The position numbers were made by a program, and so were the translations under genes. Below, in pieces: positions 3,949 to 34,072 of a DNA stretch of 64,000 nucleotides (its first letter is position 1; every line of letters begins with the position of its first letter). This DNA comes from Bradymonadia bacterium (GTDB lineage Bacteria; Myxococcota_A; Bradymonadia; UBA7976; UBA1532): positions 1-64,000 of the forward strand of contig JBKAGE010000004.1 of assembly GCA_046290225.1 (NCBI GenBank), written 5' to 3'. Below the pieces are notes generated by a model. The model was not told the DNA's origin. It worked only from the letters and a program-made list of their open reading frames with translations, and made no database searches.

Positions 3949-5266
3949 GTCGCAGACCCAGCATCGCCAGGCAGCCCAAGAACCAGGGGATGCCATGGGG
4001 CAGGGGACCACTGCGGGCGACGCATCCACCCCCAGACGATCTGTTGCCTTCGACCCCTGAGTCTTCTTCGAATATGCCCTGATCGGGCTGCGCCTCCATC
4101 GGTACGCCGGCGTCGGGATCGCCGCACGTGGCTTCGGGACCTTCACCAGGACAGAAAGCCGCGCAGGCTGTCGTTGCGGCGCTCTCCGGGGCGCAACCCC
4201 ATGTGGGGGTCACCGACTGAAAACGTTCGAGTGTGGGTTGCCAGGTGTCTCCAAAGTCACTCGAACTGCCGAGCACCCAGGGGCCCTGAAAGAAGACGTT
4301 GGAGCATGCCCACAGATCGCCAGCAGGGCCAGGCGTCAAGCATCCGAGGAAGGGGATCTCCTCGGGCGTCAGTGACCATGGGGCGTCAGGGGATTCTTGC
4401 CGCAACACGCCGGAGAACGGGACCGTCACTCGGACTGAGCCGGCTTCGTTTGTGGCCATGCCCCGAGGGTATTCATCGAGCTCTGTGGCCACGGACCAGG
4501 TGTCACCGCCATCTGCGCTGCTGAGCAGCAGAGAGGTGGGAAACCGTTGGACCACGGCATACACGCGATCTCGCTCAGCAGCGCTGGCGCCGATCAAGCT
4601 GAACTCGACGGGCAACACCTCAAGCTCCGAGGGCCCGAGAGCCATTGGGAGAAAGGTCCGGCCTCCGTCTTCACTGCGGGCGGCGCCCTCAGCGTGGGCG
4701 ACGTACATCAGATTCGGATCCACCGGGCTGCGGATCAGGCTGTAGACCCGACCCTCGATGTCCAGGCCCGCGCTGGACCAGGTCTGGCCGCCATCTTCAG
4801 TCCACCAGACATCATTTCGGGCCCCGAAGGTGGCTGTGGCCACGACAAACTCGGCCCCCTCGGGGCGCAGAATGGTCTCCGGCCTGGGTGAGATGCCGTG
4901 GGGGATGGCGCCGGCGAGCGGGCCCTCTGCTACAGAGAAGTTGCAACCGCCATCCTCGGTGAAGAACAGACCCAAATCGGTGGCAACCCACCAGCGCTTG
5001 GCCTCGACCCCCATGGGCAACACCGCCCGAAAGCCGGCGCCGGGCTCCACGGCGTCCTCGCACAGCCACCGGCTGCCGTTCGGACCCACGACGAAAAGCC
5101 CCTGATTGTCAGTGACCGCCCACGCCTCTCCAGGGAACTGAGGGGGGAAGCTGATCCCGGTGACCTGAGGGTTGCCACCGTGGCCCCAGCTCGAGGTCGC
5201 ACATAAAAGTGAGAGGCCGACGAGGGAGACGAGGCGACGTGGAGAACTGAGCTGGCATCGAAACAC
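3920..5266 (-). CDS. Secreted BNR/beta-propeller protein with MYXO-CTERM-like anchor
   Basis: Signal peptide; repeated Asp-boxes (TEDGG, SEDGGRTF, SADGGDTW, SDFGDTW); C-terminal GGGC + hydrophobic helix + Arg cluster. Confidence 0.8.
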   Translation of the reverse strand: MFRCQLSSPRRLVSLVGLSLLCATSSWGHGGNPQVTGISFPPQFPGEAWAVTDNQGLFVVGPNGSRWLCEDAVEPGAGFRAVLPMGVEAKRWWVATDLGLFFTEDGGCNFSVAEGPLAGAIPHGISPRPETILRPEGAEFVVATATFGARNDVWWTEDGGQTWSSAGLDIEGRVYSLIRSPVDPNLMYVAHAEGAARSEDGGRTFLPMALGPSELEVLPVEFSLIGASAAERDRVYAVVQRFPTSLLLSSADGGDTWSVATELDEYPRGMATNEAGSVRVTVPFSGVLRQESPDAPWSLTPEEIPFLGCLTPGPAGDLWACSNVFFQGPWVLGSSSDFGDTWQPTLERFQSVTPTWGCAPESAATTACAAFCPGEGPEATCGDPDAGVPMEAQPDQGIFEEDSGVEGNRSSGGGCVARSGPLPHGIPWFLGCLAMLGLRLNRRSRGCA

Positions 5267-12200: not shown

Positions 12201-14981
12201 TTGAAGTGGAGCCGGATCCCCGTGAGCACCGCCAGCAACACCCCCGAGATGTCTGCCGTCGTCAACGCCCTCGCCGCCGAGGGCGAGCGGACCCCTGATC
12301 GCCTGAAGCCCGCTGTAGATGCAGGAGAAGGCATTCTGAAGCGTCGGCTGCCTGCCAAGGCATACGAAAACGCTGTGGCCCATTGGCGCCAGGCTCTCAT
12401 CGCCGCCGGCGCCGCAGCACTTGAGGGTGGCGATCCTCAGGCGGTGGAGAACGCCCTCTTCGCCGCGCACCCAGACAGCCCCATCGACGAGCGGGCGTTT
12501 CGTCTGGCGTGGCTCGCCGTGGTGGATCACCTGAGCCGCTCTGGGGACAAGCCCCCCTTTGGTGGTGCTGGCAAGGCCGAGTCCTGGGCCCTCACCGCTG
12601 CGAGCCGGCCCTGGCCCCACGTCGATCTCGGTGGAGTGGCGAAGCGCATCGCCGACATGCACGGCACTGGTCAGCACGTGGTGGTGGTCCGTGGTCCCGG
12701 CCGCAGTGCCTGCCTCGCAGAGGTCCGCCGCCTGTTGCTCGGTGCCCACGGTGCCAAGAGCCCCGTGACGCCCGTGATGCCCGGGGCGCGTGATGACTGG
12801 GCACCCGTGCTCAAGCCCTTGCTTGAGCAGGTAGACCTGCCCGAGCAGCTCACCAAAATCATCCCCCAGCTGCGGTACGGAGAGGACTTCGTGGGCCTCA
12901 TGGGTCGTGCCGGTGACAGTGCCCCTGTGGCCATGATCGTCGACCACGGCCACATCCAGTCTCGCAGCCTGTTGCTCGGGCTGGCGCTCTACCTTGAGCC
13001 CGCTCCGGAGCGGAAGGCCCTGCTGGTCATGGGGGCCCCAGAAGATCCGAAGTTCGACGGCCCGCTCTCCGAGATCATCGGCGACGCCCGGGGCCGCGGC
13101 ATCCTCACGGAGTTCACGCTCAGTGACTGGAACGCCGAGGTGGCTGGCGCCCTGGTGAACACGTGGTACGGCGACACCGATCACGGCGCTGTGACCGAGG
13201 CCCTCGTAGCCGCCCTCGACGGGGTGCTGGGGGAGGGTGCCTTCGGCGCTGCGCGGGCGTGGCTCTCGGCCCTCGAAGGCCAGAGCGTGGACGAGGCTGT
13301 GAGCAGCCTGAAGGCGGGCTTCGATCCCGAGCCGCTGTTGCCCAAGTCCACCCGGGCCCGGGAGATCCTCGCCGCTGCTGCTCTCGAGGGTCAGCTGTTC
13401 CACGGCTTTGCTGTGGGCAAGGTCTTCGGCCGTGACGAAGACTTCATCGAAGATCTGCTCTTCGACGACGAGCTCGAGATCGACGGCGAGGTGGTCGGCA
13501 CCTGTGAGGCGGCGATTCCCCCTGGGGCTCAGCAGTGGACGGATCTTCCTGACGGTCTGCACCCCATCTTCGAGTTCGGCGACATGCGCCTAGTCATCGC
13601 GCTGCGGCGCACCTTCGCCCCTGAGCTTGCCCGTGGCCGGGCCCGAGCGCTGCGAGATCATCTGCTCCAGGGCTACCAGCAAGGTGGCGCGTGGCAGGTG
13701 TCCGGCACCCTGTGGAACCTCGACCAGATCGGCGGCCGTGATCGGCGCGTCGAGGGGTTGCTCGTCGGCCGCCCCGACGCCCAGCGTGTGCAGGCCGCTT
13801 TCGGTCGAATGCGCCCCGTGCTCGATGCCAAGGCGCCCTACGGTCTGGCTCTCGCCCGCCTCTACGGCGCAGGCATGGAGGCCGGCGCCCTCGGCGCCCA
13901 GGTGGGTCAGCTGCAGTTCGCCGATCAGGGCTTCCAGGCCGCCGCCGCTGCAGCTCAGCGTCTTCAGCGCCCTGGCCCCGCCGGTGAGGCCCTCGCCCGC
14001 CTAGCCGAAATGCGCATTGCCCTGTCGCTGCCTCAGCAGGCCGGGGAGGCGCTCCAGGTGGCGCGCCAGCTGCTCGAGGCCGCGCAGCACGATCGCAGCC
14101 TCGCCCGGCTCGATCTCATGCAGGCCGAGGTGCACATCCTGGATGCAGATCTCGCCACCGGCGAGCAGCTGCTCGAGCAGGCTGTAGGCACCCTGCGTGG
14201 CCTGGGCGATCAGGGCCACGTGGCCCTGGGTCTCACCCGAATGGGCCGTCTCGTCTTCGAGCGCGGTGACGCTGGCCGGGCCAAGGCCCTCCTCGACGAG
14301 GCTGTGGGCCTCGCTGACCAGCTGGGCGATCCGCGCCCTCGGGCCGCCGCCCGTATGGCCCGGGCCCACGTGGCGGCCCACGAGGGCGATCTGCAGCCGG
14401 CTTTCCAGCTGCTCCAGCAGGCCGCGCAGCTGTTTCAGGCTGTGGGCATGCCCGTGCACACTGTGGAGACCGCAGCCGCCGGCCTCCAGCGCCGCTCTGG
14501 TGCGCCGGAGCAGGCAGAAGAACGCCTCCGCAAGGTGGCCGAGGCCTTCAAGCAGGCCCGGGCTGCGGTGCAGTGGGCGGACGCCTGGCAAGAGGTCGCC
14601 CAATGCCTCATCGATCAGGAGAGCTTCTCCGAGGCGGTGATGGTGGTGCGGGAGACCGAAGAGGTCCGGCAGCGTGCTCGGGACCGCTTCGCGCTGATGC
14701 GGATGTACGACAGCTTGGGTCAGGCCCTCATCGGCAGTGGTGATCCTGCCCGGGCCTATGGCGCCTTCGCCCGAGGTCGTCGCATCGCCGAGATCCTCTC
14801 TCTGGGTAACCGGATGGGTGGCTTCGACGCTGAGATGGCCAAGCTGACCTCGGCCCTCGATCAGCGCGCCGACGCTGATCCGACAGCGATCTCTGCGGAG
14901 GCGGTGGCCTTCATCGACGAGCTGGAGGCCCGCTGGAAGGCGCCGCCTCAACCTGTGCAGCAGCCCAAGCAGGTGCATTGA
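12201..14981 (+). CDS. TPR-repeat protein with a degenerate STAND/AAA-like N-terminal module (start uncertain, possibly ATG 12249)
   Basis: VVVRGPGRS and MIVDHGH at Walker A/B-like positions, LAAAALEGQLF winged-helix-like segment, long Ala/Leu-rich TPR-like C-terminal half. Confidence 0.6.
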   Translation: MKWSRIPVSTASNTPEMSAVVNALAAEGERTPDRLKPAVDAGEGILKRRLPAKAYENAVAHWRQALIAAGAAALEGGDPQAVENALFAAHPDSPIDERAFRLAWLAVVDHLSRSGDKPPFGGAGKAESWALTAASRPWPHVDLGGVAKRIADMHGTGQHVVVVRGPGRSACLAEVRRLLLGAHGAKSPVTPVMPGARDDWAPVLKPLLEQVDLPEQLTKIIPQLRYGEDFVGLMGRAGDSAPVAMIVDHGHIQSRSLLLGLALYLEPAPERKALLVMGAPEDPKFDGPLSEIIGDARGRGILTEFTLSDWNAEVAGALVNTWYGDTDHGAVTEALVAALDGVLGEGAFGAARAWLSALEGQSVDEAVSSLKAGFDPEPLLPKSTRAREILAAAALEGQLFHGFAVGKVFGRDEDFIEDLLFDDELEIDGEVVGTCEAAIPPGAQQWTDLPDGLHPIFEFGDMRLVIALRRTFAPELARGRARALRDHLLQGYQQGGAWQVSGTLWNLDQIGGRDRRVEGLLVGRPDAQRVQAAFGRMRPVLDAKAPYGLALARLYGAGMEAGALGAQVGQLQFADQGFQAAAAAAQRLQRPGPAGEALARLAEMRIALSLPQQAGEALQVARQLLEAAQHDRSLARLDLMQAEVHILDADLATGEQLLEQAVGTLRGLGDQGHVALGLTRMGRLVFERGDAGRAKALLDEAVGLADQLGDPRPRAAARMARAHVAAHEGDLQPAFQLLQQAAQLFQAVGMPVHTVETAAAGLQRRSGAPEQAEERLRKVAEAFKQARAAVQWADAWQEVAQCLIDQESFSEAVMVVRETEEVRQRARDRFALMRMYDSLGQALIGSGDPARAYGAFARGRRIAEILSLGNRMGGFDAEMAKLTSALDQRADADPTAISAEAVAFIDELEARWKAPPQPVQQPKQVH

Positions 14982-15392
14982 GCGGACGACCGTGCCTTTG
15001 GCACCGTCTGTAGCGGACGGCCGTGCTACGCACCGCCTGTAGCGGACGCCTGAACCAGCTGCGCTGGTACAGAGCTGTAGCGGACGCCGAGTCTGCCTCC
15101 GGCAGCCTGAGCTGTAGCTTTCTAAGAGAGTTGGGTGGGAGTTATGGGCTTTTCAACCCAGGTAGGGGCTTACGCCGGAACTGGTCCGTCAGGGACCAAT
15201 GGCGTTCGCGGTAGATGAGCCCACGCTCCTCAACTGATCTTCAAAAAGCTACAGGGAATTTGCCGGAGGCAAATGAGCGTCCGCTACAGCTCTCGCCGCA
15301 GGCGAGGCGTCCGCTACAGGTTGTCGCCGCAAGGCGATGACCGTCCGCTACAGACGCAGCGAAGCGAAAGCTTTTGCTGGGTCGTCCGCTCA
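14979..15392. repeat. Nested inverted-repeat element (REP/REPIN-like or structured RNA) with three four-way junctions
   Basis: Complementary arms 14979-14991/15380-15392, 15005-15020/15341-15356, 15036-15051/15305-15320, 15071-15087/15277-15293, 15094-15104/15261-15271, 15112-15121/15245-15254, with small hairpins between the outer arms. Confidence 0.9.
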
Positions 15393-15394
15393 GT

Positions 15395-16984
15395 TCAAGC
15401 CGCTGACAGCACACCCATCAGGGCCACCAACCACCTCGCGTGGCCCGCCATCAGCTGCACACTGGTGAACTCCTTTTCGCTCTCTGGGGCGAAGTATCCA
15501 GTGCCCAGATTGGCCACCAGAGTGCCCTGATCCAGGAACGGGTCCACCCCGGTGCCCCCGCGAATGGGCCGCTCCAGCACATCCACTCTGGCGATCTCTG
15601 CGGCGGCCTTGGGCCAGGCCACCAGCTCTGGCCGATGGGCCATGCGGGGGGCCATGTTCACGTATTGATCAGTGAAGGTCGCCACCGCACCCTCGGGCAC
15701 CTGACCACGGATGTGGTCCTTACGCGCCTCGAGGCCCTCAGGGGTGAAGTCCCGGATCCGCAGATCGACGCGAATGCCGGTCTCTTGGGTCTCGATGCGG
15801 TACGGCTGGGTGTACCCCTGGCGATTGTCCGAGTCCTCGGCGCTGATGGGGTGCATGCCGTCACTGGCAAGGAACCGCTCGATGAATTGGAGGGCTGCGT
15901 CGATGCCCCCTTCGGCTTCACCGCTTGCGGCTTCGAGGGTGCCGACCACATAGCCTGCGCCTCGACAGACATGGGGCTGGACCACCCGCTCCACGGCACC
16001 CTTGAGTGCGTCGAAATGCGTCCGGGCTGCGGTTTCTGTCGTCGCAGACAGCCGGAACCGGACCGTGGCATCACAGTCTCGGAGCGGATCGCATTCGAAG
16101 CTCACAGGTGTGATGTCGCCGCGGAGATCGCCGAGAGCCCCCATGATCTCGGTGGTGAGTCGGGTCGCTGGACGGTGACCCTCGCTCTTCGCCGTGGCCC
16201 CGTGGGTGTTGACCCCGAGCACCTGCACTTCGACCTGCCATGGGCCTGCGGCGACAGGAGTCTTCTGGAACACCAGGCCGCAGTGGGCGGCGTTGAAGTT
16301 CTCCACGTTGATCTCGTAGGGCAGCAGGCCATCGATGGTGAATCCGGTGTGCACCCCGCGCTCGGCGAGAGACTTCGCCAGCCCCAGCAGGGCCTCCTCC
16401 CGGCCGATCTCCTCATCGGGGCGTCCGATCAGCAACAGCGGAGGGTGGGGCAGATCGCTGTGCGCATGAAGCACCCGCGCCAGGGTCATCATGTGGGTCA
16501 GGCCCAGCTTGTCGTCGAGCCCGAAGGGGGCCTTGCCCGTACCGTAGACCAGATCCTGGCCCACAAAGGCTGTCAGATCCGGGTAGGTCTCCACGTCGAC
16601 CTGAAGCCGATCGTTCTCGGGGTAGGGGATCCGATCGCCGCCCCAGCTCGAGAGCACGTTGAGATCGGTGAGGGCCGCGGTGCCCCGGGCGGTGTCGAGA
16701 TGCACCATCAAGGCCACCGGTGGCTGAGATGCGCCCGGGCCGCGGCCAGGGAAGGTGGCGATGATGTTGGCGAAGTCGTCACGCTCCACCTCGGCGCCCA
16801 GCTCGGCGAAGAAGCCTGCGAGGTAGTCCGCCAGGTGGGCTTGCCCCTCGGTGCTGGGGACTGTGTCGGAGCGCTCGTCGCTGGCGCTGTCGATGGCCAC
16901 CACCGACTTGAGGTGCTCCAGGGCCCAGGCGCCGAGGGTGGCGTCGTCGAGGGCGGTCAGATCGATCGCGGTGAGATCGGTCAT
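15395..16984 (-). CDS. pepT: Peptidase T-like M20 metallopeptidase (divergent, enlarged)
   Basis: VPSTEGQ, HLDT, GLDDK, PDEEIG, FTIDG, ENFNAA, PIRGGT; ATG 16984 overlaps the upstream stop (ATGA). Confidence 0.8.
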   Translation of the reverse strand: MTDLTAIDLTALDDATLGAWALEHLKSVVAIDSASDERSDTVPSTEGQAHLADYLAGFFAELGAEVERDDFANIIATFPGRGPGASQPPVALMVHLDTARGTAALTDLNVLSSWGGDRIPYPENDRLQVDVETYPDLTAFVGQDLVYGTGKAPFGLDDKLGLTHMMTLARVLHAHSDLPHPPLLLIGRPDEEIGREEALLGLAKSLAERGVHTGFTIDGLLPYEINVENFNAAHCGLVFQKTPVAAGPWQVEVQVLGVNTHGATAKSEGHRPATRLTTEIMGALGDLRGDITPVSFECDPLRDCDATVRFRLSATTETAARTHFDALKGAVERVVQPHVCRGAGYVVGTLEAASGEAEGGIDAALQFIERFLASDGMHPISAEDSDNRQGYTQPYRIETQETGIRVDLRIRDFTPEGLEARKDHIRGQVPEGAVATFTDQYVNMAPRMAHRPELVAWPKAAAEIARVDVLERPIRGGTGVDPFLDQGTLVANLGTGYFAPESEKEFTSVQLMAGHARWLVALMGVLSAA

Positions 16985-19155
16985 ACGAGGGCGGCTCCTT
17001 TGCTGGTGCCCGAGCCCAGGCGGCCCATCTCGATGAGCTCGGATCGGGCGGCCTGGTGTAGCAGGGCTGTGGTCAGAGGGGTGTTCTGGGCCGCGGCGAG
17101 GAAGGCCGCCCGGACCATGGAGTTGCGAATCAGCGCCCCGCTCATCTCCCACTGTCGGGCGAGGCCGATCCAGTCGAGATCAGGGTCCAGGGCGAGGCCT
17201 GGAGGCACCATGGAGCGCCACAGCTTCAGGCGCTCCTCTTCTTTGGGCAGATCGAAGTGCAGGCGGAACCGGAGGCGGCGCTTGAACGCCTGATCGATGC
17301 CCGTGCCGAGGTTGGTGGTCAGGATGGAGATGCCTTCGTACGCCTCCATGCGCTGCAGCAGGAAGTTCACCTCGAGGTTGGCGTACCGATCGTTGCTGCT
17401 CTCCACCTTGGTGCGCTTGGCGAAGAGGGAGTCGGCCTCGTCGAAGAGCAGCACCACGGGCACCCGGGAGGCTTCGTCGAAGAGGCGGGCGAGGTTCTTC
17501 TCGGTCTCGCCGACGTACTTGTCCACGATGCGGGACAAGTCGACCTGGTACATGTCGAGGCCCAGCTCTTTGGCGATCAGGGCGGCGCTCATCGTCTTCC
17601 CTGTGCCTGGCGGGCCGCTGAACAGACAGCTCAGCCCTCGGCCCTTGCTGCCGAGCTTGCGGGCGAAGCCCCACTCCTCGAACACGCGAGTGCGAAAGCG
17701 GGCGTGGGCCAGGATCTCCATCAGGCTGCCGTGGACCTCTTCCTCGATGATCAAATCGTCCCAGGTCTGGGTGGTGGAGGTGAAGGTGGCCAGATCGGCG
17801 AGGTGGGTCCTGATCTGACGACGGATGGCCTGATCGAACCGAACGGTGTCGAGTGTTGCTGTGTCGCCCAGCTCTACCCGCACGTCTCGGAGCGCGCGGT
17901 CGAGATCACCGGGACGCAACTTGTACATGTCGGCGAGGCCCATGACCTGACCCGGAGGTACCTCGAAGGCGTGTTTCTCGAGTAGCTGCGCGTAGAGGCG
18001 TGTACGCACCGGGGTTGGCGGCTCATCCATGCTCAGGGAGCGGGCATGGGGCACCAAAGCGGCGATGTGCGCCACGCTCAACCGATCCGCGGTGAGCACC
18101 ACCGGCACGTCAAAGGCCCTGAGGAGCCGCGCCAGAGCACCACCGCGTCGATCGTTGCGATCTCCGAGGGGCTCCGCGCGAATCAAGATCAACGCCCCCA
18201 ACAAGAAGCCATCTCTCAGCGCCGCTGCGAGCTGAGTCTCGAAGGGCTCTACCTCCCAGGGCAGCGCTGCGGTGTTGATGCAGAAGAGCGGGCGCTTCGC
18301 CATGAGCGCGTAGGCCCGGGCCAGGGTGCGGCGGCCGCTGCCAGGGGCACCCACAAGAAGCACGGGGGCGGTGTCCCGGCCTTGGGCCAGGGGCCCGAGC
18401 AGCCGGCCGAATCGAACAGGGTCAGGGATCACCAGCTCTTTCGGCCCTGGCCCCGACATCTCCAAAGACACAGCCCCGGGTGTGTATGACTCGTCGAGGA
18501 TGGGGCGGCCAGAGAGGCACCGCCTGACCGCGTCTGGGACGAAGATGGGCCTCAAGAGCAGGGGGGTCGCCGGCTGCCAGCGTCGATCTTCGCCAAGCTG
18601 AACCAGGCGCAGACGACGCAGCGCTGCGTCGGGGGCCAGGGCGTCTTCCAAGTCGGCCCGGTGCGCTTCGTCGTCTGCGAGCAGCTCCAGCAGAAACCCC
18701 GCCGTGGGTTGCTTCACTGCGAAGTCTGCCCAGGCGAAGGTGCACACCCGAAGCAGCCCCGGAGAGCCCTCCAGCGTGGCGAGCAGTGTCACCAGCTCCA
18801 ACGCCGTGGCATCGAGCTGAGCAAATCGACCGAGGCGGGCGGGGGGCAGATCTTCGTGGGCCTCCAGACGCTGTGAGAGCCGCGTGCGCAGGTCGACGAT
18901 CTGACCATCGAGGGCCTCTGCATCTGGCAGCGCGATGGGCGGCTTCGCCTTGCCCACCTCGAGCTCGGCGCTCACCTCTTCGATGGTGACGAAGAGATCA
19001 GAGAGGCTGCCTGCACCCTGCGCTGCCCGATACCAGTAGCGGCTCAAGTATCGTTTCAGCAGTGCCTGGGCCAGGCGGTGGGCGTCGGCCCGCCAGGGGG
19101 CAAAAGCCGGCGAGCGTGAGGGGGCTGGGGTTTCCAGTGTGGGCACGCGAGGCAC
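16981..19155 (-). CDS. AAA+ ATPase, Afp15/Pvc15-like architecture
   Basis: GPPGTGKT, DLSRIVDKYVGETEKNL, LLFDEADSLF, DRYANLEVNFLLQRME; degenerate first AAA module (GAPGSGRRT). Confidence 0.88.
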   Translation of the reverse strand: MPRVPTLETPAPSRSPAFAPWRADAHRLAQALLKRYLSRYWYRAAQGAGSLSDLFVTIEEVSAELEVGKAKPPIALPDAEALDGQIVDLRTRLSQRLEAHEDLPPARLGRFAQLDATALELVTLLATLEGSPGLLRVCTFAWADFAVKQPTAGFLLELLADDEAHRADLEDALAPDAALRRLRLVQLGEDRRWQPATPLLLRPIFVPDAVRRCLSGRPILDESYTPGAVSLEMSGPGPKELVIPDPVRFGRLLGPLAQGRDTAPVLLVGAPGSGRRTLARAYALMAKRPLFCINTAALPWEVEPFETQLAAALRDGFLLGALILIRAEPLGDRNDRRGGALARLLRAFDVPVVLTADRLSVAHIAALVPHARSLSMDEPPTPVRTRLYAQLLEKHAFEVPPGQVMGLADMYKLRPGDLDRALRDVRVELGDTATLDTVRFDQAIRRQIRTHLADLATFTSTTQTWDDLIIEEEVHGSLMEILAHARFRTRVFEEWGFARKLGSKGRGLSCLFSGPPGTGKTMSAALIAKELGLDMYQVDLSRIVDKYVGETEKNLARLFDEASRVPVVLLFDEADSLFAKRTKVESSNDRYANLEVNFLLQRMEAYEGISILTTNLGTGIDQAFKRRLRFRLHFDLPKEEERLKLWRSMVPPGLALDPDLDWIGLARQWEMSGALIRNSMVRAAFLAAAQNTPLTTALLHQAARSELIEMGRLGSGTSKGAALV

Positions 19156-32123: not shown

Positions 32124-34072
32124 AAACCAAGAACACACACAACACCATCACCACCGAGCAGATGAATTCTGGAGGCAACCTCAACATGCGTATCCGTAAC
32201 CCCCTGTCGTTCCGACGTCTGGCGGGCTCCGCGGTGGCGGGCGCCGCGGTCCTGGTCTGCGGCGTGTCCGCTGCTCAGGCCCAGCAGGTGCCTTCGGTCC
32301 TCCCGTACACCGGCTACATCGCCAACAGTGACGGCGCCGCGCTCAACGAGTCGGTCGATCTGACCTTCCGTCTCTACTCCAGCCCCAACAGCGACACCCC
32401 CGTCTGGTCGGAGTCTGTCGAGAACGTGGTGGTGGACGACGGTGTCTTCTACATCTACCTCGGCATGAACAGCCCCCTGGCGAACTACTTCCTCGACGGC
32501 AGCACCCGCTACCTCGGTGTCGAGGTGAACGGCGACGGCGAGGCCGAGCCTCGTCAGGAGATCGGCAGCGTGCCCTACGCCATGCTCGCCGGTGACGCTC
32601 TCCGCCTCGGCGGCTACCCCGCCGAGAGCTTCCTCACCGAGGAAGACGTGACGGTGATCCTCGAGAGCGACAACTACATCACCCAGACCTCCCTCGAGCA
32701 GTACCTGGAAGACCAGGAGTTCGTGACGGTGGTGAACATCGAGCAGGTGCTCGAGGGTGACTACGTGACGGTCGAGGAGCTCAACGAGGCCATCGCCGGT
32801 GCTGCGGTGAACGTGGAGCAGGTGACCAACATCATCAACCAGGAGCTCGGCGAGCGCGGCTACATCTCGGAAGCCCGCCTCAACGAGATCCTCACCGAGC
32901 GCGGCTACCAGACCGCTGCTCAGGTGAACGCCCTCATCGACGCCCGTGGCTACCAGACCGCGAACCAGGTGAACCAGCTCATCGACGCCCGCGGTTACGT
33001 GACCGAGGCGCGGGTGAACAACATCATCGACAACCGCGGCTACGTGACCCTGAACCAGGTGAACCAGGCCATCGACGCACGCGGCTACGTCAACACCGAT
33101 GCGGTGAACCAGCTCATCGACGCCCGCGGCTACGTGACCCTGGCCCAGGTGAACCAGGCCATCGACGCCCGCAACTACATCTCCCAGAACACGCTGAACC
33201 AGACCCTGAACAACTACGTGACGGTGAACCAGCTCAACAACGCCGAGGCCACCATCGAGGCCAACGTGCTGGCCACCCTGCAGGCGGCCATCGAGGACAA
33301 CGTCGGCGAGCTGGTGGACGCCGCTGTGGCGAACGCCGTGGCCGATTCGGTGGATCAGCTGGTGGCGGACGCCATCGCTGCTCAGGTGGGCCAGATTCAG
33401 GCAGACATCGCGCAGAACGCTGGCGCCATCGCGAACAACGCGAACGCCATCGCGCAGAACGCCAACAACATCGCGAACAACGCGAATGGCATTGGCAACA
33501 ACGCCGGCAACATCAACGCGAACTTCGATTTGATCGCCGACAACGAGGCGTCGATCAACGCGTTGCAGGCTCAGGTGGCTGATCTGACCAACCGCCTGAC
33601 CAACATCGAAAACAACGGCGCTGGTGCAGCCGCTGAGCCCACGATTCTCGGTGTGTCGCAGTCAAGTTCCAGCGGTAAGATCACCTACGGGGGCCGCGCC
33701 GGCCTTGCTGCTGGTCGCCAGATGTGCATCGACACCTTCGGTGCAGGTGCCCACATGTGCAGCAGCCACGAGGTCTCCCTCGCCGTTGCTGCAGGCAACA
33801 TCAACTTCAATAATGGTCAGGCCGGTGACGGGCAGCAGACCTGGACCGTTGCTGGTGCCAGCCTGCAGGCCAACAATCAGGGTAACAATGGTTTGGGCAA
33901 CACATGCCAGAACCTACTCTACAACAGTGGTGATGTTGCCGTGGGCACCACCTTGGAGATTGATCGCAACTACACCAGCAATGGTGGTGGCGGCAATGCG
34001 ACCTCCGACGTCTTTAAGCTGCGTCGCTCGATTCCGTGTAACACACCTCTCCCCGTGCTCTGCTGCCGCTGA
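32120..34072 (+). CDS. Secreted trimeric fibre/adhesin: N-terminal beta-sandwich, repeat stalk, Cys-rich lectin-like tip
   Basis: Signal peptide ending [36 protein letters not shown]; 15-aa and heptad repeats; tip MC...AHMC...CQN...[11 protein letters not shown]. Confidence 0.75.
32855..33214 (+). repeat. Eight 45-bp coding repeats (consensus RGYVTxxQVNQxIDA)
   Basis: Read directly from the DNA and the translation. Confidence 0.9.
33407..33616 (+). repeat. Heptad repeats with Ile at a and Asn at d ([14 protein letters not shown] ...)
   Basis: Ten heptads, seven with Asn at d, a pattern typical of trimeric coiled coils. Confidence 0.85.

What the first reader, a model, noticed from the sequence alone, without database searches (positions are those of the whole stretch)
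14979..15392. 414-nt rod-shaped element with three stacked four-way junctions
Seen: essentially the whole gap between two convergent genes folds back on itself. Four perfect 13-17 bp stems (TGAGCGGACGACC, CGTCTGTAGCGGACGG, CCTGTAGCGGACGCCT, AGAGCTGTAGCGGACGC and their complements) are separated by small hairpins placed opposite each other on both arms. Left hairpins: GTGCC-TTT-GGCAC, GTGC-TAC-GCAC, ACCAGC-TGC-GCTGGT. Right hairpins: CAGCGAAGC-GAAA-GCTTTTGCTG, TTGTCGCC-GCAA-GGCGATGA, TCGCC-GCA-GGCGA. The first junction has no unpaired linker bases. Opposing hairpins differ in sequence, so this is not a simple inverted duplication. Pairing continues inward (TGCCTCCGGCA, CTGTAGCTTT, GGGCT/AGCCC, ACGCC/GGCGT, TGGTCC/GGACCA). 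The left end includes the TGA stop of the TPR gene. Known: REP/REPIN elements carry a GTAG tetranucleotide recognised by RAYT HUH nucleases. Inference: a non-autonomous ssDNA-mobilised element or an undescribed structured RNA; it is much larger than a terminator needs to be.
Basis: partly seen in the sequence, partly recalled or inferred. Interest (0 to 1): 0.85.

Follow-up and report, generated by a model that had tools for sequence, protein, structure and literature searches.

The report
Swappable-hairpin repeat, gene-less cassette form
This 414-base stretch is one of about 30 full-length copies of a gene-less, mirror-image DNA repeat built from swappable mini-hairpins and wedged between gene ends; it is likely the passenger form of hairpin-armed cassettes that carry a small four-helix-bundle gene, and the enzyme that would move it is not identified.

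Summary
The fold is real (z about -17), but the element is one copy of a dispersed family: 49 two-ended members, 28 over 300 nt, 33 between convergent genes. It was not found in 112 class relatives or Rfam. Each arm strings four mini-hairpins on a constant 12-mer. Base pairs covary inside modules (73/78) but not across arms (11/23), so the four-way junctions look like a by-product. A related strain carries only a roughly 16-nt remnant at this locus. No RAYT is in this genome. A sister family shares the core. Both four-helix-bundle (PF05635) genes here lie in rod loops, and arms of the same design enclose such genes in four other genomes. Best reading: a non-autonomous, single-stranded-DNA-type element of the four-helix-bundle cassette kind, probably cut in trans by a lost Y1 enzyme (0.5). 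The scan noted this family before on other copies (e1-9944015, e1-9828884). Added here: the covariation test, the collapsed allele, and a promoter-like box shared by four-helix and Y1 genes.

The parts
14982..15389 (.). Whole family-A rod element (408 nt between the invariant GCGGACG ends; 14979-15392 with the flanking TGA/TCA)
14978..14981 (+). Left flank TTGA, includes the stop codon of the upstream gene; matches the degenerate target half-site seen at most ends
14982..15012 (+). Left module 1: motif + hairpin 14992-15004 (TTT loop); its foot pairs within the module
15013..15041 (+). Left module 2: hairpin 15023-15033 (TAC loop)
15042..15079 (+). Left module 3: hairpin 15054-15068 (TGC loop)
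15080..15121 (+). Left module 4 (innermost, arm-specific), ending in the last TGTAGC joint and T run
15122..15244 (+). Asymmetric core, about 81% alike among copies, homologous (53%) to the core of sister family B; no conserved fold, no conserved ORF
15245..15284 (-). Right module 4 (innermost)
15285..15314 (-). Right module 3: hairpin 15293-15305
15315..15348 (-). Right module 2: hairpin 15321-15340
15349..15389 (-). Right module 1: hairpin 15357-15379
14988..15379 (.). 392 nt missing in one contig of a related strain (run X1), leaving the short terminal palindrome
   Evidence: table 5
12201..14981 (+). Upstream host gene, 926 aa, weak TPR match
15395..17152 (-). Convergent host gene, peptidase-T-like (M20 family, below cut-offs)

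Best explanation
The element is one copy of a gene-less, dispersed inverted-repeat family whose arms are strings of interchangeable mini-hairpins, and it is likely the non-autonomous form of cassettes that hold a four-helix-bundle (PF05635, Avd-like) gene between such arms, probably moved as folded single-stranded DNA by proteins supplied in trans. SHOWN: dispersal, modular arms, one-strand loop rule, pairing maintained inside each module, a core shared with family B, an A/B hybrid, four-helix genes inside sister rods, short collapsed forms. INFERRED steps: (1) on exposed single-stranded DNA each module folds on its own, and the array of hairpins is the recognition surface; (2) the four-helix ring protein binds the arms and an HUH (Y1) transposase, now lost from or unassembled in this genome, would do the cutting and joining; (3) the whole unit lands at a loosely symmetric TTGA-GC-TCAA site and survives mainly behind genes; (4) modules are shuffled between copies by recombination at the constant 12-mer; (5) copies decay by slippage across the fold-back to 16-33 nt palindromes. 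A role as terminator or 3' stabiliser for the two convergent mRNAs would be secondary and is untested.
For: Dispersal: 53 blastn loci; 49 two-ended members, 33 between convergent genes against 1033 of 6184 gene pairs (p 4e-15). Kit: 197 modules from 26 copies, 76 distinct, 176 of 196 loops C(T..)G when read outside-in, opposing modules differ in 59 of 64. Foot pairs inside outer modules 73 of 78 (shuffled 38.9), across arms 11 of 23 (shuffled 9.5). Family B (36 full copies) shares the core; hybrid at C82:48337-48782. 2 of 2 PF05635 genes of the genome lie in rod loops. Inverted arms of at least 30 bits flank 16 of 25 class loci against 1 of 49 controls and 14 of 19 further loci against 1 of 35. 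Motif-plus-mini-hairpin arms of the same polarity enclose four-helix genes in G059, G067, G042 and G077; one G059 arm has 50 matches genome-wide, and three inspected are gene-less rods. One bipartite box precedes 25 of 60 four-helix genes and 13 of 22 Y1 genes (antisense 1, shuffled 3.1). Collapsed allele at this locus in run X1 matches four 16-nt forms in the genome.
Against: No family-A copy encloses a gene; the link runs through family B, whose enclosed gene is frameshifted, and through arm design. No binding or mobility was tested, and the four-helix family has no known function (PMC4990558, passages). No Y1 gene or remnant is in this 99%-complete assembly. All 4 genomes with kit-type arms hold Y1 genes, so Y1 alone could suffice; but the G059 and G067 Y1 loci tested have no inverted arms. 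The promoter-like box is absent from A and B cores (0 of 22, 0 of 30) and at chance level in this genome (11 of 6264 genes). The within-module covariation rests on about three inherited types. No clean empty site was found; GC is also the commonest pair after TGA genome-wide (1126 of 5024). The X1 joint is one contig at depth 5 and could be polymerase bypass; two other copies showed no joint.
Confidence: 0.5

Rival explanations
1. An oversized REPIN/BIME: arrays of GTAG REPs mobilised by a RAYT that has since been lost; four-helix genes are just cargo that other rods picked up.
For: Internal joints carry CT followed by GTAG 5' of a hairpin in 141 of 148 cases, the layout TnpA-REP uses (PMC8266576, passages). 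Inverted arrangement with GTAG outward, and position between convergent genes, as for REP dimers (PMC3733652). 9 of 27 family relatives have Y1 genes.
Against: The outermost units lack GTAG. No RAYT or remnant. The stem starts 3 nt after GTAG and overlaps the next GTAG. It does not explain why 2 of 2 four-helix genes sit in rods or why the same arm kit encloses them elsewhere.
Confidence: 0.25
2. A classical MITE: long terminal inverted repeats with four transposase-binding 12-mers per end, moved as double-stranded DNA by a DDE transposase or recombinase with a 2-bp GC duplication.
For: Both flanks show the same graded half-site and vary independently. In four ends a TAG stop spans the boundary, which fits G belonging to the target. 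One IS4 transposase, one serine recombinase and several tyrosine recombinases are present.
Against: Spacers between the 12-mers vary in length yet keep hairpins with a strand-polar loop, which a double-stranded binding array would not need. The IS4 copy has its own ends and sits inside a family-C rod. No transposase gene lies between A arms.
Confidence: 0.1
3. RNA-mediated copying: the rod is transcribed from neighbouring genes, bound by the Avd-like protein and reverse-transcribed, as in diversity-generating retroelements.
For: PF05635 is homologous to Avd (PMC10053308, passages), which binds RNA with a reverse transcriptase (PMC6182149, abstract). 70 of 81 facing gene ends are within 20 nt or overlap. 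Two RT genes exist.
Against: The RTs are retron-type, in their own operons. Core orientation is random to the neighbouring gene (5 same, 4 opposite). No excess of changes at adenine in the core. No 5'-truncated series; the short forms keep both ends.
Confidence: 0.08
4. A functional structured non-coding RNA with stacked four-way junctions, or a purpose-built bidirectional terminator.
For: Very stable fold on both strands. Enriched between convergent genes. Several loops can also be read as UUCG or GNRA RNA loops (recalled knowledge).
Against: No cross-arm co-adaptation, no conserved core fold, no homologue in 112 class genomes, no Rfam match, no U-tract terminator in the element. The locus tolerates loss of 392 nt in a relative.
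Confidence: 0.07

Closest known systems
REPINs / BIMEs / GTAG REP dimers with RAYT (TnpA-REP) (PMC3116915, PMC3733652, PMC8266576; passages read)
   Same: Dispersed, intergenic, downstream of genes; GTAG-tagged hairpins in inverted arrangement; one-strand features; short remnants of a larger unit.
   Different: Four different hairpins per arm in head-to-tail arrays, about 400 nt against 71-110 nt spacing for SBW25 doublets; ends lack GTAG; hairpin sequence free while the 12-mer joint is fixed; no RAYT in the genome; core shared with a second family.
ORF-bearing 23S rRNA intervening sequences (S23p / PF05635 / TIGR02436; PMC4990558, passages read)
   Same: A four-helix-bundle gene in the loop of terminal inverted repeats (seen here in sister families B and C); mobility suspected but unexplained.
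   Different: Outside rRNA; arms 140-320 nt rather than 28 bp; this copy has no gene; dozens of gene-less copies per genome.
TIR families of TIRYT genes (PMC3733652, passages read)
   Same: Long terminal inverted repeats around a small gene, with gene-less repeat families elsewhere in the genome.
   Different: The enclosed gene in the sister rods is a four-helix bundle, not a tyrosine transposase.
Bacterial MITEs such as ERIC, Correia, RUP, BOX (named in PMC3733652 introduction; BOX recalled)
   Same: Non-coding, fold-back, next to coding sequences, symmetric ends.
   Different: No TA duplication; arms 140 nt and modular; no matching transposase found.
DGR Avd-RT system (PMC6182149 abstract; PMC10053308 passages)
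   Same: Homologous pentameric protein family that binds a specific non-coding nucleic acid segment.
   Different: No DGR-type RT, no template/variable repeat pair, no adenine bias in the core.

Membership tests
REPIN/REP-RAYT | GTAG tetranucleotide 5' of a hairpin | tested here: inconclusive
   Met at internal joints (141 of 148); not met at the outer ends.
REPIN/REP-RAYT | Inverted arrangement forming a long hairpin, dispersed and extragenic | tested here: met
REPIN/REP-RAYT | Cognate RAYT gene flanked by the same units | tested here: not met
   PF01797 and NF047646 give 0 matches; tblastn with 22 Y1 proteins of relatives is blank. The assembly is 99.4% complete in 83 contigs.
REPIN/REP-RAYT | Identity to one of the 24 published GTAG families | not testable with these tools
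   The consensus sequences are in Figure 1 of PMC3733652, which is not held; supplements not read.
REPIN/REP-RAYT | Strand-specific cleavage at CT by TnpA-REP | not testable with these tools
   Needs a cleavage assay.
Four-helix-bundle (PF05635) inverted-arm cassette | PF05635 gene in the loop | tested here: not met
   No family-A copy has a gene; met for sister families B and C.
Four-helix-bundle (PF05635) inverted-arm cassette | Arms of a repeated motif, T-first mini-hairpin loops on the outside-in strand, as around PF05635 genes of relatives | tested here: met
Four-helix-bundle (PF05635) inverted-arm cassette | Sequence continuity with a gene-bearing family | tested here: met
   Shared core and A/B hybrid; B arms enclose the gene in place of the core.
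Four-helix-bundle (PF05635) inverted-arm cassette | Promoter-like box inside the upstream arm | tested here: not met
   0 of 22 A cores with the pattern fixed on relatives.
DDE-type MITE | Target-site duplication shown by an empty site | tested here: inconclusive
   A GC duplication or none both fit; the one alternative allele keeps both ends.
DDE-type MITE | Autonomous IS with the same ends | tested here: not met
   IS630, IS3/IS30 and IS91 families were not searched by profile.
Structured ncRNA (Rfam-type) | Covariation across the predicted global fold and homologues in other species | tested here: not met
   Rfam
Structured ncRNA (Rfam-type) | Discrete transcript | not testable with these tools
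   No RNA data could be examined.
Intrinsic terminator | GC hairpin followed by a U run | tested here: not met
   None inside the element.

The most novel reading that the evidence does not exclude
The rods belong to an undescribed, widespread class of mobile DNA in which the orphan four-helix-bundle ring protein reads arrays of mini-hairpins on single-stranded DNA and licenses a co-regulated Y1 transposase, encoded elsewhere, to move them; new families arise by mixing arms, hairpin modules and cores.
Probability: 0.3. Interest if true: 0.85.

Novelty: new variant of a known kind. Interest (0 to 1): 0.58.

Why it matters
It ties an unexplained class of bacterial repeats to a large protein family of unknown function (PF05635/TIGR02436) and makes the link testable: defined arms, a strand rule, an intact candidate protein in the same genome and a candidate partner enzyme in relatives. 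It bears on the open question of how palindromic repeats without their own transposase spread. It also warns RNA-discovery pipelines that spectacular branched folds can come from a DNA hairpin kit. Non-coding rods fill about 0.76% of this genome, mostly at gene ends, so they may shape termination.

Tried and rejected
Rfam: 4 matches at E up to 10, all far below gathering; 0 at gathering on five loci. Homologue searches: 0 of 40 relatives; 3 of 112 class genomes with single unrelated pattern hits; 3 of 112 with 33-37 nt hits at E about 0.006; 24 GTDB, 12 metagenome and 4 viral pattern loci, none a homologue. No RNA holder listed. Laying X1 on two other full copies gave no joint. Candidate enzymes in the genome: Y1 0, RAYT 0, IS110 0, DUF559 0, PDDEXK_3 0, GIY-YIG 1 in a 625-aa frame, IS4 1, serine recombinase 1, tyrosine recombinase 8 matches, RT 2 of retron type; none but the IS4 lies in a rod. 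The core as coding remnant: no conserved frame. The core as promoter relic: only a loosened, after-the-fact pattern fits (12 of 22), not counted. Bias to replication strand: 14 against 12 by local GC skew. Russian-doll nested self-insertion as origin of the layers: considered, not testable; fixed module order argues that the whole unit moves. One search had a query bug and was replaced. Literature searches for a description of four-helix genes in inverted arms outside rRNA found none (open-licence library only). No structure or complex prediction was run, since it would not test DNA binding.
Full report
1. Observation. The four stems (13, 16, 16, 17 bp) and six side hairpins are at the stated places. 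The 422-nt stretch folds at -152 kcal/mol as DNA and -269 and -263 as RNA on the two strands, z -16.6 to -17.3, with no shuffle as stable. It fills the gap between a 926-aa gene with a weak TPR match and a convergent peptidase-T-like gene. Rfam has no match.

2. It is a dispersed repeat of one species. Blastn finds 53 loci in the 8.58-Mb genome. A motif census gives 49 two-ended members: 28 over 300 nt, 2 of 198 nt and 19 of 16-91 nt; about eight more have one arm. With my own crude gene caller, 33 of 49 lie between convergent genes, 15 between tandem genes and 1 between divergent genes, against 1033 convergent pairs of 6184 (p 4e-15). Of 81 gene ends facing an element, 70 lie within 20 nt or overlap and 21 abut it. 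Survival behind genes in a 90% coding genome can explain this without stop-codon targeting. No homologue was found in 40 relatives, 112 class genomes or pattern scans of GTDB, metagenome and viral contigs.

3. Anatomy. Each arm, read outside-in, is four modules joined by one 12-mer (141 of 148 joints identical) in a nearly fixed class order. From 26 oriented full copies I parsed 197 modules, 76 distinct; the outer classes occur on either arm. 176 of 196 apical loops are C(T..)G on this strand, hence mostly C(GNA)G-type on the other, a stable DNA mini-hairpin (recalled knowledge). The A-loop strand folds better for 67 of 76 modules with DNA parameters and 54 of 76 with RNA parameters. The key test: the two bases at the foot of the outer modules pair within the module in 73 of 78 cases (shuffled 38.9; distinct modules 25 of 30, shuffled 12.5), while the match needed across arms to close a four-way junction holds in only 11 of 23 oppositions (shuffled 9.5, p 0.31). 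The within-module signal comes from about three inherited types, so it reflects few events. Still, the maintained structure is the single module; the tidy junctions of this copy are a lucky pairing. The core of about 120 nt is 81% alike among 22 copies and shows no conserved fold or reading frame.

4. Ends and decay. Outside the invariant GCGGACG, 90 outer ends show a graded preference: A 82, G 80, T 53, T 43 at positions -1 to -4. Left and right flanks of one copy are no more complementary than shuffled pairs (104 against 110). This looks like a symmetric target half-site, with a GC duplication or none; GC is also the commonest pair after TGA in this genome (1126 of 5024). In run X1, a related strain about 98% alike in the flanking genes, one contig at depth 5 joins 14987 to 15380. 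That leaves a remnant of about 16 nt like the four 16-nt forms in this genome; depth over the element (33-137 against about 2-5) shows many copies there too. A library artefact cannot be excluded, and two other copies gave no joint. The 28-33 nt forms keep both ends and one hairpin, as slippage across a fold-back would leave (inference).

5. The family is one of several. Among 163 largely non-coding long inverted repeats, clusters of 46, 42 and 26 loci are families C, B and A. Family B (36 full copies) has different GTAG-tagged hairpin arms with the same loop polarity (312 of 388 loops start with T) and a homologous core (53% identity; all 74 profile hits lie in A or B loci). One locus joins an A arm, the core and a B arm. 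Both PF05635 four-helix-bundle genes of the genome lie in rod loops: a frameshifted one replaces the core between B arms at C77:107011-107853 and an intact one lies between C arms at C72:82266-83361 (TIGR02436; PDB 2GSC at E 9e-11).

6. The link holds in relatives. For the best PF05635 locus per genome in the class, inverted arms scored at least 30 bits in 16 of 25 (11 of 25 at 40 bits) against 1 of 49 shifted controls; my own two loci are excluded and four were dropped for short flanks. In the further loci of the phylum sample it was 14 of 19 against 1 of 35, three omitted for short flanks; in 15 extra loci from four chosen genomes, 14. Most arms are 6-8 nt tandem repeats, but in G059, G067, G042 and G077 they are a constant motif alternating with mini-hairpins of the same loops and polarity as family A (judged by eye from printed flanks). 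One G059 arm has 50 matches in its genome; three paired sites inspected are gene-less rods.

7. Which enzyme? This genome has no Y1/RAYT gene or remnant, and no IS110, DUF559 or PDDEXK_3 gene. All four genomes with kit-type arms do hold Y1 genes, as do 9 of 27 family relatives; the G059 and G067 Y1 loci tested lack inverted arms. A bipartite box resembling an ECF-sigma promoter (resemblance recalled) precedes 25 of 60 four-helix genes (1 of 58 downstream, shuffled 2.4; pattern drawn from about ten of these loci). The same fixed pattern precedes 13 of 22 Y1 genes (antisense 1, shuffled 3.1; several loci share a genome). This suggests co-expression and makes a Y1 enzyme acting with the four-helix protein a concrete candidate. 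It may also be a general stress promoter. The box is not in the A or B core and is at chance level in this genome.

8. Mechanism. Most likely (0.5): a non-autonomous member of the four-helix cassette kind that is recognised as folded single-stranded DNA, copied in trans, reshuffled by recombination at the 12-mer and eroded by slippage. Dispersal, modularity, polarity, family links and collapse forms are shown; protein binding, the catalyst, the intermediate and any host function are inferred. That it is a dispersed non-autonomous DNA repeat rather than an RNA gene I put at about 0.9. Rivals: orphan REPIN (0.25), DDE-type MITE (0.1), RNA-mediated copying (0.08), functional RNA or terminator (0.07).

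9. Comparison with the known. It works like a REPIN or TIR family (PMC3116915, passages; PMC3733652, parts 1-2 of 8 and passages; PMC8266576, passages) but fails membership on the cognate RAYT and terminal GTAG. The published GTAG consensus figure and supplements were not seen. Its gene-bearing sisters resemble the ORF-bearing 23S rRNA intervening sequences (PMC4990558, passages), whose protein is homologous to DGR Avd (PMC10053308, passages; PMC6182149, abstract). I found no paper on such cassettes outside rRNA in five searches of the open library.

10. Earlier notes of this scan. I reached the four-helix link, before reading them. Notes on other copies of this family and on families B and C say much the same; they are AI notes and not independent support. 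Added here: the within-module versus cross-arm test, the collapsed allele at this locus, kit-type arms around four-helix genes in other genomes, and the box shared with Y1 genes.

11. Verdict. Real feature; new variant of a known kind (non-autonomous palindromic mobile repeat) with an unexplained partner. Interest 0.58.

Noticed in passing
G000 C78:372746-372903 and C34:360963-361134: A 158-172 nt element with 18-nt terminal inverted repeats and a TA duplication is nested in the core of one family-A copy and one family-B copy; partial relatives at about 30 other places.
   Followed up: partly
G000 C82:48337-48782 (L079): Hybrid rod: family-A arm, shared core, family-B arm.
   Followed up: yes
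G000 C50:55530-57157 (L081): An intact-looking IS4-family transposase gene inserted inside a family-C rod.
   Followed up: partly
G000 family B loci, e.g. C41:18574, C50:17733, C61:31822: The outer 30-40 nt of both arms are often identical within a copy but differ between copies, suggesting arm-to-arm homogenisation.
   Followed up: no
window 15123-15132 and family C arms: The 9-mer AAGAGAGTT occurs 61 times in family-C arms, 13 times at the inner boundary of family A and 14 times elsewhere; possible shared binding site.
   Followed up: no
L069 (metagenome contig), 4001-4300: A GC-rich organism has the same 11-mer in tandem with mini-hairpins, starting at a TAG stop; one arm only, no blastn homology to family A.
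   Followed up: no
L088-L168 and L169-L190, upstream regions: A promoter-like box (CGCAAC, 16-17 nt, CGAWA) shared by four-helix and Y1 transposase genes across the class.
   Followed up: partly
G000 C79:172510-189783: Two convergent operons each ending in a retron-type reverse transcriptase gene, with large neighbouring genes; a short family-B remnant lies between them.
   Followed up: no
G000 C1:25536, C34:114735, C51:24353, C78:355934: A further short palindromic repeat at convergent gene ends.
   Followed up: no
window 32760-33510: 45-nt and 21-nt tandem coding repeats in one gene.
   Followed up: no
G000 C46:54976-55655, C20:15573-16165, C35:95773-96224: Rods of other families enclosing AT-richer non-coding cargo with no clear gene.
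   Followed up: no
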